DNA of 64,000 nucleotides from Octopus vulgaris (lineage: Eukaryota): the NCBI GenBank assembly GCA_951406725.2, contig OX597815.1, forward strand, positions 27,962,001 to 28,026,000, in the 5' to 3' direction. A program made the position numbers. Positions 10,391-55,200 of the stretch are shown in pieces; positions within the stretch are counted from its first letter, which is position 1; the number at the start of each line of letters is the position of its first letter.

Positions 10391-11206
10391 GAGAGAGAGA
10401 GAGAGAGGGAGAAAAAGAAGAGATAGAGAGGGAGGAAGACAGAAACAGAGAGAGATAAGAAGCATTTTCTGGTAGATGATAGCATAATAGAAGATTTGGG
10501 AAAGGCGATGGAAGTGGGGGCGGGGTCACACGTATTTTAAAGATCATATTTAAAACAGTATTTCTGAATGTGTGTCTGTGAGGGAATGAGAGAGGGGAGG
10601 ATGTGACAGAAATGGTAGAGAGAAAGAAAAAGAGAGAGAGAGAAAGGGATAGAAGGAAAGAAGGAGACAGAAATGATAAAACTCCATGTCCTTCAATTCT
10701 GTCTTTAAGAAGTCATGATAAATAAGCATATTCTTGTTTCAACACTTCCCTCCTCTGCTCTTCATCTTGAGTCTCTCTTCCCTCACTTTATTATACACGC
10801 TTTTGTTTTGGTGGTGGTGGTGGTGGTTTGTGTGTATGGGGTGGTGGGTGAAGGTATGGTTGTTGAACCACTCATTAAAGAAAGTAACTGTTAAAGATTA
10901 TACAAAATAATTTTTCATAGCATTCAGGAGTTTCCTTCAGCTTTAAGGTTACGAGGCATCCTTTTCTTCATCTTTTTTTCAAGAATGTTGAATGGTTGAA
11001 GACAGAATACCTGTAGGAACACAAACAACAACAAAAAAATAAGTTAGATTATGTTAGCTCTTCAAAAATAGTTTTACATTATATGCACATATATACAGAC
11101 AGCCTCTTTTGAAACACTTCATTTATTTTATTACTGTTAAACCCCCATTATATTTTATTCCCATGTTGCCTCAGATATATATATATAAATAAATAAATAA
11201 ATATAC

Positions 11207-11255
<49 letters not shown>

Positions 11256-11262
11256 TAAATAA

Positions 11263-11294
<32 letters not shown>

Positions 11295-52077: not shown

Positions 52078-52117
<40 letters not shown>

Positions 52118-52150
52118 TAATAATAATAATAATATAAAAATAACAACAAC

Positions 52151-52211
<61 letters not shown>

Positions 52212-55200
52212 CATCATAATAACAATTGAATACAAAATTAATTACCTGGTCTGTAGCTAATAGAGGGAATTCTTGTGATGGGTTCGTTATAACATAACGT
52301 TTTGATGATGGACTTTTCACAGTAGCGCTAGTATCCCGGAACCGGTAGAGACCAATACATAATATGCCAAAATTTCGAAGAGCAGCTAAAAACAAATCTC
52401 CATAACGGCCACTTTCCTGAAGAATAATACAACAATACATGTTCATTTGTTGATTACTTCATGATATGTATTGAATACACTGTAATTAGCACCATGAGAT
52501 TTATTTGTAATTTCTCATGATTCAGTCACTGCATAGTTCAGATGGAATATATTTATGAAAATGATGAGGTGAGATGGATATACAGTAAGGTACAAGGAAT
52601 CAGAGCATATATTTTGAGCAGATCTCTTTACTGAAGATTGTTGCCATTGTTCAGCCTCAGGTCAACCCTGATTGAGGAGGCATATAGTGAAAGATGTTCC
52701 AACTATGGCCACCATATCTTTTGAATATCAGGGATGACACTATTATTGAATGCTTTCTTTCCATTCTTAAAAGACAGTTGTAAGTGATTTGAAGAAGATT
52801 TCGCTGTTTTTCTAGCAGTCTAAGTGCTTATGCAGTGGATCCTTTATTGGCTTCTGTCTTAAATATGTGGTGGATAATGTATAATTGATCCCATATTTAA
52901 TGATAAAAATTTCAATGCAACCTTTCTCTCTGAATGTGAGTTTCTGCAACAGAATTTGAACTCAATACACCAAGCTAAAAAAACATCCCTCTGTTATTTA
53001 GTGTCATAGATAGTAACTCATGTGCCACCAAATTAAAGTATAGTGGACTTTTGAGAGCAAAGTGCCACTGCCAAGAATCCATTTGAATAATGATGCTCGG
53101 ATATGAGCCATCAATTCTAAATGCAACAAGCCACAATTTTACCAATTAGGAATATATTAGGCAATGACCTTAAGACTAAACATATGACTGAATTAGCTCA
53201 TCTCCTTCACATTAATTAAAAGTACTAAGAAAAAGTTTACATAAATATGCAAAGATGACAACAAAAAAACAATTTAAAAGAACTTAAAATGAAGATTATG
53301 TTTTAGCTTCTGGAAACATTCTATACAACTATTAATCTTGGGACTATATAGCTGATAACACAGACGTACACAATGTAAAATCACAAACATATAACTCACC
53401 CCATATTGAGCTAGTGGCCCTTCATATAATGAAATCTGTGCAACTCGACATCTGTCTCTGTTAGCCAAGATACTTGGAGTGCTGTAACCACCTCTCATTC
53501 CTGCTCCTTCAGCCAGAATCTGCTCTAGTTCTGGAGTAGCACCACCAGTAATTAAGGTTCGGATCAATGTTAGTGCATTATCGTTAAAGTAACTCTGTCA
53601 AAGAAATGGAAGAGATTACATTTTGGCATAAATATCATTGCTTTACCAATATTACAACAAAGGGGTATTGCAACATATCAATTAACATTTTTACAGATGT
53701 GTAACAATTTTATTGTATTGTAGTAGTGCATGCTATAGATATCATATGATTGTAATAATATAAGGTTGTCCCAAAAGTTCATAGAAAGTCTTGGAAAATA
53801 ATGGTCTTTATTTTGAGGAATAATTTTTGTTGTTTTTGTTAGTACTTGGCGAGTAAAAATTCAATTTTCGCAAGTGTTTACGAACTTTTGGGACAACCTA
53901 ATATGATCTATAGTATGTAGAATCTGTTCTTTTCATGTTATAGATATTCTTGCAAAGTGACCTGGACAAAATGAAGCAACAGATTGCTGACTGGTGAATC
54001 AATTTGGCTATAGAAAAGTGCACCACTATATATTTTGGGAGGAAAAACCAGGAATTTACCTACTTCCTTCACAACATCTGCCTTATGAAAATGACATTGC
54101 TAATGAACACGACATTGGCATTATATGTCAAACAGGTGCTGTGTCCATCTACTGTGATGATAAAAATTTATAAGACAGATATATTGCATCTTTTCTCTGG
54201 TTCACCTCTGGTTGTTATGATAATGGGACTAAATAATACAGATTGAATAATACAAATATGTAAACCATAGATCTGACATTCGAAAGAAAAATGTACACAA
54301 TATGACTATTAAAACTTATGATTTGAAATAACAACTTCCACACAATATCAGTGCAAGCATGGTTAGGTGGTTAAGAAGTTTGCATCACAACTATATGGTT
54401 TTGAATTTGATCTCATGACACAGTATCTTGGGTAAGTGTCTATGACTGTAGCTTCAGGTCAACCCAAACCGTCAGAGTGGAATTTAATAGCTGTTAACAG
54501 TGTTTTAGTCTATTGAAGGGATCATTTCTGTTCTTGAAGGGTAGACTTGATCAATCACCTGTATTAATATCACTACCTGGTTTAGGAATCTGCCATAATA
54601 CAAGCATTCAGGTCAGGCCACAATACAAGCATTAATCTGCCATAATACAAGCATTAAGGCCACCTTTCCTCCTGCCAATTTTGGAGGTCCTGAAAAGAAT
54701 GGTCAACACTACTGTTTCTTCTCTAAGTCATTAAAGAATATTTTAAATAAACTAAACATTCTAAAGACAAAAAAATTGTTAAAAAGAAAGGAAAAGCCCA
54801 TATTAATCCTTAGTTGCCCTAAAACAATTATAGCACTTGTCTTATGAAAAACAAATGAGGAACATTGTTAAAGACAGATCCAGTTCCTATTGTGGCAACT
54901 TGCTTAGTCATGCAATTGATATGAACAAAATTTTTATTGTTCATTTACAGTTTAAGAAAGAAACAAAAATTGGAAATGGTTAATGAATTTTTAAGACTGT
55001 ATACTTTCAAGATTATCTATAAGACTATTACATGCTAATGCAATAGAACTTATCAGATAACTTTAGAGGAGAAAATGTAGCAATTACGTGACTATATGAG
55101 CGAGACAACATATTTTTCAATTACAGTATATGCTACAAACCTCATATATCATCTGATTTTAGTGGCAACTACAAAGATAAATTAATACAGTCCTGTGAAT

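What the first reader, a model, noticed from the sequence alone, without database searches (positions are those of the whole stretch)
10924..52245. Candidate array of duplicated, mutually exclusive last exons for the BK channel C-terminus
Seen: the last constitutive exon ends in phase 0 (…LATDQ|gt at 52245), and the best continuation is 41 kb away (VFCLQPFNILE…, 11010), whereas the other introns here are 0.8-1.7 kb. In between are at least three more AG acceptors that open in phase 0 with a paralogous start: VFSLIPCNFSE (31744), LFLLQPVPS (15128), IICAMGPCS (47202), plus VFCR* (43489). Each diverges into an unrelated tail. Established: this hydrophobic strand (vertebrate IFCLMQFD, fly VFVLMQFD) completes RCK2, and C-terminal splice variants of vertebrate KCNMA1 alter trafficking. 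Inference: exon duplication produced a cassette of alternative terminal exons that swaps the last RCK2 strand together with the tail. I cannot tell whether this is already annotated.
Basis: partly seen in the sequence, partly recalled or inferred. Interest (0 to 1): 0.8.

Follow-up and report, generated by a model that had tools for sequence, protein, structure and literature searches.

The report
Octopus BK channel alternative C-terminal exons
The long last intron of an octopus BK potassium-channel gene holds one already annotated internal exon and one probably real extra exon shared with oysters and scallops, while the other two proposed exons look like chance.

Summary
They are not an array of mutually exclusive last exons.

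- **47202-47125** is an internal 78-nt exon with its own GT donor. It is followed by the 11010 exon in Octopus bimaculoides and Argonauta hians proteins.
- **31744** is the best match in the whole window to the VFCL[AV]PCN exon of oyster and scallop slo isoforms. It scores 44; 0 of 200 simulated windows reach that. Its acceptor is strong, and its only GTRAG donor (31683) is in phase 1, at the codon where bivalve proteins switch tail.
- In the oyster, the residues after this exon are the ordinary terminal exon read one base out of frame: 30 of 30 residues are codon-compatible. The octopus terminal exon read that way gives ILSSTIQHS and a stop.
- **15128 and 43489** are at chance level.

I saw no octopus transcript or protein carrying the 31744 exon, so its use is inferred.

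The parts
53400..60304 (-). Six upstream constitutive exons of the slo/BK gene (RCK2, including the Ca2+ bowl [16 protein letters not shown]): about 60304-60143, 58912-58685, 58068-57874, 57097-57000, 55456-55326 and 53594-53400.
   Evidence: Stop-to-stop ORFs. tblastn of O. bimaculoides isoform X2 (P0003) against the window. Boundaries are approximate to a few bases.
52246..52416 (-). Last constitutive exon, ending ...LATDQ in phase 0. Donor GT at 52245-52244.
   Evidence: 100% identical over 57 aa to O. bimaculoides slo isoforms X7 and X2. Matches Aplysia BK chains up to residue 1058 of 1065.
47125..47202 (-). Internal 78-nt exon (26 codons, phase 0 to phase 0) encoding IICAMGPCSQYLSTDDSIDLPDKPEE. 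Acceptor AG at 47204-47203, donor GT at 47124-47123.
   Evidence: Present between ...TDQ and VFCLQPF... in P0002 and P0003 (O. bimaculoides) and P0004 (Argonauta hians). tblastn E 2e-15 and 2e-9. Absent from the unnamed cephalopod-like P0005 and from all non-cephalopod tails.
31684..31744 (-). Candidate exon B, 61 nt (20 codons plus 1 base, phase 0 to phase 1), encoding VFSLIPCNFSENQAKGKWEK. Acceptor AG at 31746-31745, donor AAAA|GTAAGG with GT at 31683-31682.
   Evidence: Best match in the window to the bivalve VFCL[AV]PCNLSQ exon. Gapped alignment to scallop tails ends at EKS, E 0.013. Acceptor has 15 of 20 pyrimidines and no AG for 281 nt upstream. The only GTRAG in the open frame is at 31683, in phase 1. 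No transcript evidence seen.
31589..31683 (-). Read-through continuation of exon B if its donor is not used: SKDVINAASISAATAAAVTAISAAVHVNMLI, stop at 31591-31589. Low-complexity, GCT-rich.
   Evidence: No protein in the database matched the 51-aa read-through peptide (406 candidates, none at E<=10). An AATAAA lies about 400 nt downstream, which is not decisive in AT-rich DNA.
10924..11010 (-). Terminal coding exon A: VFCLQPFNILEKKMKKRMPRNLKAEGNS, stop at 10926-10924. Strong acceptor.
   Evidence: Annotated in P0002-P0005. tblastn E 9e-16. Score 46 against non-cephalopod 11-mers, 0 of 200 simulations.
10979..11008 (-). The same terminal exon read one base out of frame, as it would be after the phase-1 donor of exon B: ILSSTIQHS, then stop at 10981-10979.
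   Evidence: This parallels the oyster, where 30 of 30 post-B residues including the stop are codon-compatible with the type-A exon in the shifted frame.
15060..15128 (-). Judged a chance match.
43475..43489 (-). Judged a chance match.

Best explanation
The window holds the 3' third of an Octopus slo (BK, KCNMA1-type) gene on the minus strand. After the last constitutive exon (...LATDQ, phase 0) there are three real acceptors, not five.

(1) An octopod-specific internal 78-nt exon (47202-47125) is present in the annotated proteins.

(2) Exon B (31744-31684) is a 61-nt exon orthologous to the VFCL[AV]PCN exon of oyster and scallop slo genes.

(3) Exon A (11010-10924) is the ordinary terminal exon.

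B and A begin with paralogous versions of the hydrophobic segment that directly follows TDQ, which is the last structured element of RCK2. Choosing B replaces that segment (C to S at position 3, Q to I at 5, F to C at 7).

Because B ends in phase 1, there are two outcomes. Either the terminal exon is read one base out of frame, giving a short uncharged ILSSTIQHS end in place of the polybasic EKKMKKRMPRNLK tail. Or, if the donor is ignored, the protein ends in a read-through tail with its stop at 31591. Both modes are visible for the orthologous exon in oyster annotation.

The expected effect is on the stability of the end of RCK2, and on tail-dependent trafficking or regulation rather than on the pore.

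Shown: the sequences, the splice signals, the homology to bivalve isoforms, the dual-frame use in oyster proteins, and the annotated use of 47202 and 11010.

Inferred: that exon B is spliced in octopus, which of the two modes it uses, and any functional effect.
For: Identity of the gene: 100% identity of the exon to O. bimaculoides slo isoforms, and the exon map.

47202 is internal: P0002, P0003 and P0004 read TDQ, then the insert, then VFCLQPF....

Exon B:
- It is the top hit in the window to bivalve 11-mers (44, against the best unrelated hits of 33 and 30).
- 0 of 200 simulated windows reach 44.
- It ranks 1 of 3210 AG-preceded sites.
- Its acceptor is as good as the annotated ones (15 of 20 pyrimidines against 13-17 in 9 annotated acceptors; only 5.4% of 3176 AGs reach 15).
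- Its single GTRAG donor falls in the codon after EK, exactly where scallop proteins read EK, S, ILPNAFQ. The density of GTRAG is 1.25 per kb.

Dual frame in oyster: 30 of 30 residues are compatible, against at most 4 in 2000 permutations. The two oyster proteins are identical at 1057 of 1064 upstream columns.

Among the 120 best database hits, 32 carry the B-type start. 22 of these continue with a read-through-like tail and 10 with the [IL]LP.A[LF]Q tail.

23 of the 120 hits are short fragments that read V plus unrelated sequence after TD[QKH]. This fits a donor GTN at a conserved intron position.

Aplysia BK chains used for cryo-EM end 7 residues after TDQ.
Against: - No octopus or other cephalopod protein with exon B was found. 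The 51-aa read-through peptide matched nothing (406 candidates, none at E<=10). The four cephalopod-like full-length representatives all use exon A.
- The other 30 members of the O. bimaculoides cluster could not be listed, so absence from annotation is not shown either.
- Octopus B has S where all bivalve B and all A-type exons have C.
- The B-type exon was seen only in pteriomorph bivalves among the 120 hits, not in gastropods. An ancient origin therefore implies losses, or exons that I could not see.
- The gapped tblastn E-value is modest on its own (0.013).
- No cephalopod genome could be searched for conservation.
Confidence: 0.6

Rival explanations
1. One reading: four or five duplicated, mutually exclusive terminal exons (47202, 43489, 31744, 15128, 11010), each supplying the last RCK2 strand and its own tail.
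For: All five open in phase 0 after an AG with a hydrophobic start. 15128 ranks 5 of 3210 against A-type queries.
Against: 47202 is internal and is joined to 11010 in annotated proteins. 15128 and 43489 are at chance level and have average acceptors, with no relative in any tail from other molluscs. In oysters, B-type and A-type exons are co-included.
Confidence: 0.05
2. Only the annotated exons (47202 and 11010) are used. The 31744 segment is a relic of an ancient exon that octopus no longer splices, or a chance look-alike.
For: No cephalopod protein with it was seen. It has S instead of the conserved C. Its read-through tail is low-complexity.
Against: An unused 61-nt exon would not be expected to keep its acceptor, frame, motif and phase-1 donor in a repeat-filled intron since the bivalve-cephalopod split (inference). 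Chance is excluded at 0 of 200 simulations, even before the AG and the donor are required.
Confidence: 0.25
3. Exon B is used only as an alternative last exon. Its donor is read through, and the mRNA is cleaved in the intron, giving the tail that ends ...HVNMLI.
For: It has its own stop at 31591-31589 and an AATAAA about 400 nt downstream. 22 of the 32 B-type bivalve proteins have a tail (GNYSGY...) that fits a read-through of the donor (the codon reading is my inference).
Against: The consensus GTAAG donor sits exactly at the bivalve junction. The read-through peptide looks non-coding (a GCT repeat) and matches nothing.
Confidence: 0.15

Closest known systems
Oyster and scallop slo isoforms with the VFCL[AV]PCN exon (NCBI models of Magallana/Crassostrea gigas, C. 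angulata, C. virginica, Saccostrea echinata, Argopecten irradians, Ylistrum balloti)
   Same: The position is the same (directly after TDQ). The motif V-F-x-L-x-P-C-N-x-S is shared. The junction falls after ...EK or ...HK in phase 1. The terminal exon is then read in the shifted frame, or the donor is read through.
   Different: The octopus exon is shorter (20 codons against 22-41) and has S for C at position 3. Its shifted-frame tail is 9 residues against about 29. Octopus use is not documented by any protein I could see.
Tandem-duplicated, mutually exclusive exons of slo genes (Drosophila slo, C. elegans slo-1, human KCNMA1)
   Same: Homologous exons swap a structural element of the gating ring. 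PMC9741552 (passages read) reports distinct homologous-exon events in the fly, worm and human genes.
   Different: Those events lie elsewhere in the protein and keep length and frame. Here the exons differ in length and phase and can be co-included, so this is not a strict mutually exclusive pair.
Vertebrate KCNMA1 C-terminal alternate exons (site 4: QEERL, VYR/EMVYR, VEDEC endings)
   Same: Alternative 3' exons change the extreme C-terminal tail. See PMC6901604 (passages read), and PMC11719602 and PMC8149700 (abstracts from search listings). That these variants affect trafficking or targeting is recalled, apart from the mitochondrial link of VEDEC named in the PMC8149700 abstract.
   Different: The vertebrate variants diverge well downstream of the last RCK2 strand (recalled) and do not replace it. 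Homology of the exons was not tested and is not claimed.
Duplicated alternative 3' exons of tropomyosin genes
   Same: Tandem duplicated 3' exons give homologous alternative C-termini (PMC9741552, figure legend passage read).
   Different: Unrelated protein, and no frame shift of a shared terminal exon.

Membership tests
BK / Slo1 (KCNMA1, slowpoke) channel gene | Exons encoding RCK2 with the Ca2+ bowl, and close identity to known Slo1 proteins | tested here: met
   The [16 protein letters not shown] exon is present. 100% identity of the 57-aa exon to O. bimaculoides slo isoforms. Matches Aplysia, Drosophila and human BK chains in the PDB at E 6e-24 to 4e-13.
Mutually exclusive tandem-duplicated exons | Neighbouring exons are homologous to each other | tested here: met
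   A and B share V, F, L, P and N in their first 8 residues. 11010 is the second-best hit in the window to the bivalve B query, and 31744 ranks 4 of 3210 against A queries. For 47202 the likeness is weak (rank 9 against B, 563 against A).
Mutually exclusive tandem-duplicated exons | The exons have the same phase, and usually the same length, so either one keeps the frame | tested here: not met
   47202 is 78 nt (phase 0 to 0). B is 61 nt (phase 0 to 1). A is terminal.
Mutually exclusive tandem-duplicated exons | The exons never occur together in one mRNA | tested here: not met
   47202 and A occur together in P0002-P0004. Bivalve B and A occur together, with A read out of frame. For octopus B this is not testable here.
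Alternative last exon / composite terminal exon | An in-frame stop of its own, downstream of an unused donor | tested here: met
   For B, the stop is at 31591-31589. For 47202, a stop follows 10 codons past the donor, but the annotated proteins splice it.
Alternative last exon / composite terminal exon | A poly(A) site of its own, and transcripts that end there | not testable with these tools
   Only an AATAAA about 400 nt downstream was seen. No transcript data are available.
Cassette exon | Functional acceptor and donor flanking an open frame | tested here: met
   47202-47125: AG and GTAACT. 31744-31684: AG with 15 of 20 pyrimidines, and GTAAGG.
Cassette exon | Both inclusion and skipping observed in mRNAs of the same species | tested here: inconclusive
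   Inclusion of 47202 is shown in two O. bimaculoides isoforms and in Argonauta. Skipping was seen only in an unnamed, 93%-identical protein (P0005), possibly from another species. The other cluster members could not be listed.

The most novel reading that the evidence does not exclude
Molluscan slo genes carry an ancient 3' module that predates the bivalve-cephalopod split. A short duplicated exon replaces the last RCK2 strand and, by ending in phase 1, also makes the shared terminal exon code in a second reading frame. The first codons of the terminal exon would then have been under dual-frame constraint for roughly half a billion years. Octopus would retain the module next to an octopod-specific 26-residue insert, giving up to four C-terminal forms from three exons.
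Probability: 0.4. Interest if true: 0.55.

Novelty: new member of a known kind. Interest (0 to 1): 0.4.

Why it matters
BK channels are tuned largely by alternative splicing, and cephalopods are a model for neural transcript diversity.

If exon B is used, octopus makes BK subunits with an altered final RCK2 strand and without the polybasic tail. That would be a testable handle on gating-ring stability and channel trafficking.

The oyster-octopus comparison also offers a clean example of a terminal exon that is translated in two frames depending on the upstream exon. I found this in none of the papers returned by my searches.

For annotation, the finding corrects the exon-intron model: there are two introns, of 5.0 and 36.1 kb. 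It also flags one candidate exon to look for in RNA-seq.

Tried and rejected
- **Read-through peptide search.** A database search with the 51-aa read-through peptide of 31744 gave 406 candidates, none at E<=10.
- **Scallop tail search.** A search with the scallop B tail (P0035, residues 1128-1175) gave 5 candidates and 2 hits, both scallops, so nothing was learned about wider distribution.
- **AlphaFold2.** I folded the annotated insert-containing protein P0002 with 29 homologs to see which segment forms the last strand. Mean pLDDT was 40.3 and pTM 0.28. The model puts a strand at residues 1063-1069 (DQIICAM) and none at VFCLQPF, but it is too poor to use, so I draw no conclusion.
- **DNA-level duplication.** Among the 1.8-kb surroundings of the five candidates there are only microsatellites and one 210-nt dispersed repeat upstream of 47202 and 15128. 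That repeat does not reach the exons.
- **Other mollusc tails.** tblastn of the other alternative tails (Elysia VYVLTYK..., caenogastropod LFVLINF...) hit only AT-microsatellite translations or nothing.
- **Long intron ORFs.** A Pfam scan of 6 long ORFs found no family for 5. One had a sub-threshold Cortexin match (17.2 bits against a cut-off of 25).
- **Literature.** Searches found no paper on cephalopod or mollusc slo C-terminal exons.
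Full report
**What the window is**

The minus strand carries the 3' part of a slo/BK channel gene. Stop-to-stop ORFs show the RCK2 exons, including the Ca2+ bowl. The 57-residue exon 52416-52246 is 100% identical to Octopus bimaculoides slo isoforms X7 (P0002) and X2 (P0003), 98% to Argonauta hians (P0004), and 93% to an unnamed cephalopod-like protein (P0005). 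That search gave 3160 proteins at E<=0.001 among 3178 candidates, of which the best 120 were listed.

The window differs from the O. bimaculoides proteins at a few residues. It is therefore a very close relative or another individual, and I do not name the species.

tblastn of P0003 gives this exon map: about 60304-60143, 58912-58685, 58068-57874, 57097-57000, 55456-55326, 53594-53400, 52416-52246, 47202-47125 and 11010-10927.

**The observation**

- ...LATDQ with GT at 52245
- the 11010 acceptor and VFCLQPFNILEKKMKKRMPRNLKAEGNS with its stop at 10926-10924
- VFSLIPCNFSE... at 31744
- LFLLQPVPS... at 15128
- IICAMGPCS... at 47202
- VFCR then stop at 43489

Upstream introns are about 0.6-1.7 kb.

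**47202 is an internal exon**

The segment runs 78 nt to GAAGAG|GTAACT. In P0002, P0003 and P0004 the protein reads ...TDQ, then this 26-residue insert, then VFCLQPF... to the normal end. The annotated path therefore has introns of 5.0 kb (52245-47203) and 36.1 kb (47124-11011), not one of 41 kb.

The insert is absent from P0005 and from every non-cephalopod tail. Whether octopus ever skips it is open. Its start resembles the strand only weakly: rank 9 of 3210 against the bivalve type and 563 of 3210 against the ordinary type.

**31744 matches a bivalve exon**

I sorted the 120 best hits by what follows TD[QKH]:

| Count | What follows the junction |
|---|---|
| 55 | ordinary type ([AVLI][FY]C[LF]xPF, or arthropod VFVLMQF) |
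| 32 | VFCL[AV]PCN (all oysters and scallops) |
| 23 | short fragments reading V plus unrelated sequence, fitting a read-through of a GTN donor at a conserved intron |
| 3 | the octopod insert |
| 3 | caenogastropod long tails |
| 2 | Elysia VYVLTYK tails |
| 1 | no motif |
| 1 | truncated |

Scoring the bivalve 11-mers against every position of both strands puts 31744 first in the window, with 44. Next is 11010 with 35, and the best unrelated hits score 33 and 30. In 200 second-order Markov simulations of the window the maximum was 41 (mean 30.8, sd 3.0), so 0 of 200 reach 44. Among 3210 AG-preceded sites with 12 open codons it ranks first.

Gapped tblastn aligns the scallop tails to 31744-31682, ending at ...EKS (E 0.013).

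The acceptor has 15 of 20 pyrimidines, against 13-17 in the 9 annotated acceptors; 5.4% of 3176 AGs reach 15. There is no AG for 281 nt upstream.

The only GTRAG in the 153-nt open frame is AAAA|GTAAGG at 31683, in phase 1. It lies in the codon after EK, where the scallop proteins change from exon-B sequence to S-ILPNAFQ. GTRAG occurs 1.25 times per kb on this strand.

**Dual-frame use of the terminal exon**

In Magallana gigas isoforms X8-X12 (P0094-P0098) the B-type exon is followed by A-ILPTALQNNVDRSG.... A codon-compatibility test shows that all 30 of these residues, including the stop, can be encoded by the type-A exon (LFCLQPFKTMSTDQ..., P0053) read one base out of frame. Across 2000 permutations of that tail, at most 4 consecutive residues were compatible. 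The two proteins are identical at 1057 of 1064 upstream columns.

Of the 32 B-type proteins, 22 instead end GNYSGY..., which fits a read-through of the same donor (my codon inference). The other 10 carry the [IL]LP.A[LF]Q continuation.

The octopus terminal exon read from its third base gives ILSSTIQHS and a stop. Because the shifted frame is largely fixed by conservation of the A frame, this likeness is not independent evidence. The independent evidence is the phase-1 donor at the homologous codon.

**15128 and 43489**

15128 scores 28 against type-A queries. AG-preceded sites that good average 0.37 per simulated window, and 61 of 200 windows have at least one. Its acceptor is ordinary (12 of 20 pyrimidines, which 31% of AGs reach). 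No tail from any mollusc matches it.

AG followed by [VIL]FC occurs twice on each strand. The 43489 acceptor has 10 of 20 pyrimidines, the background mean. I treat both as chance.

**Structure and mechanism**

Aplysia BK chains in the PDB align to the constitutive exon up to residue 1058 (TDQ) and are 1065 residues long. The constructs therefore keep just the seven residues of this strand and drop the tail. I take this to mean that the strand is the last structured element, which is an inference.

Choosing exon B would change residues 3, 5 and 7 of that segment and remove the polybasic tail.

An AlphaFold2 model of the insert-containing P0002 was too poor to say which segment docks (mean pLDDT 40.3).

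Vertebrate KCNMA1 also varies its C-terminal exon (site 4; PMC6901604, passages read). By recall, that variation lies downstream of this strand.

**Limits**

- No octopus protein with exon B was seen.
- The isoform cluster could not be opened.
- No cephalopod genome or transcript data were available.
- I searched exon by exon. I neither searched nor folded a joined model of TDQ plus B plus A; that step was left out.
- The intron is otherwise filled with microsatellites and dispersed repeats, and shows no DNA-level duplication of the exons.
- Five literature searches found no description of these exons. PMC9741552 (passages read) documents other homologous-exon events in slo genes.

**Verdict**

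There are three real or probably real exons (one annotated internal insert, one candidate ancient alternative exon, and the terminal exon) and two chance matches. Strict mutual exclusivity is not met.

Noticed in passing
window 60304-10924, minus strand: The window differs from the O. bimaculoides database proteins at a few residues: TLPALD against TLQALD, PDKPEE against PDKPDE, and KKRMPR against KKKMPR. None has a genomic A where the protein would need G, so this is not an RNA-editing signature. The window is probably a sister species or another individual.
   Followed up: partly
P0049 and P0050 (Crassostrea virginica), not in the window: After the B-type exon the tail starts in the shifted frame (LLPPALQ) and then continues with residues of the ordinary frame (SSDQPSRQERVEDAILKLKHDIKQNLMT). 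This suggests an indel that merges the two frames in this species, or a corrected gene model.
   Followed up: no
P0043 and P0044 (Elysia crispata, same locus tag); P0031, P0033 and P0045 (caenogastropods): Other molluscs also have different continuations at the same TDQ junction: VYVLTYKAIVNE against AFCLQPFNYND... in one Elysia gene, and long LFVLINFASP.C... tails in Babylonia, Nucella and Littorina. The junction appears to be a recurrent site of alternative or lineage-specific 3' exons.
   Followed up: partly
23 short database fragments (P0001, P0006-P0009, P0013 and others): All read V plus unrelated sequence straight after TD[QKH]. That is expected if ORF callers ran through a GTN donor, so the phase-0 intron position seems conserved across many invertebrates.
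   Followed up: partly
window 47756-47547 and 15888-15680: A 210-nt repeat, 75% identical, lies 350-550 nt upstream (in gene orientation) of both the 47202 exon and the 15128 candidate. The similarity does not reach either exon. It is probably a dispersed element.
   Followed up: partly
window 12447-12662, 21510-21607, 26126-26340, 60584-60797: Copies of a SINE-like dispersed element of about 215 nt, ending in a GAT repeat (65-84% identical).
   Followed up: no
window 31835-32025, 51996-52226, 4972-6282, 45669-46078: Long microsatellites. An (AAT)n run lies about 90 nt upstream of the exon-B acceptor. An (ATA)n run begins about 20 nt after the constitutive donor. (AT)n-rich tracts of 1.3 kb and 0.4 kb lie downstream of the gene and in the intron.
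   Followed up: no
window 26584-26922, plus strand: A 112-aa open frame looked to me like the DNA-binding end of a mariner-type transposase (from recall). The Pfam scan found no family at E<=0.01.
   Followed up: partly
window about 43480, minus strand: A second, more pyrimidine-rich AG (gtgttttgcag) lies 10 nt downstream of the 43489 acceptor and would compete with it.
   Followed up: no
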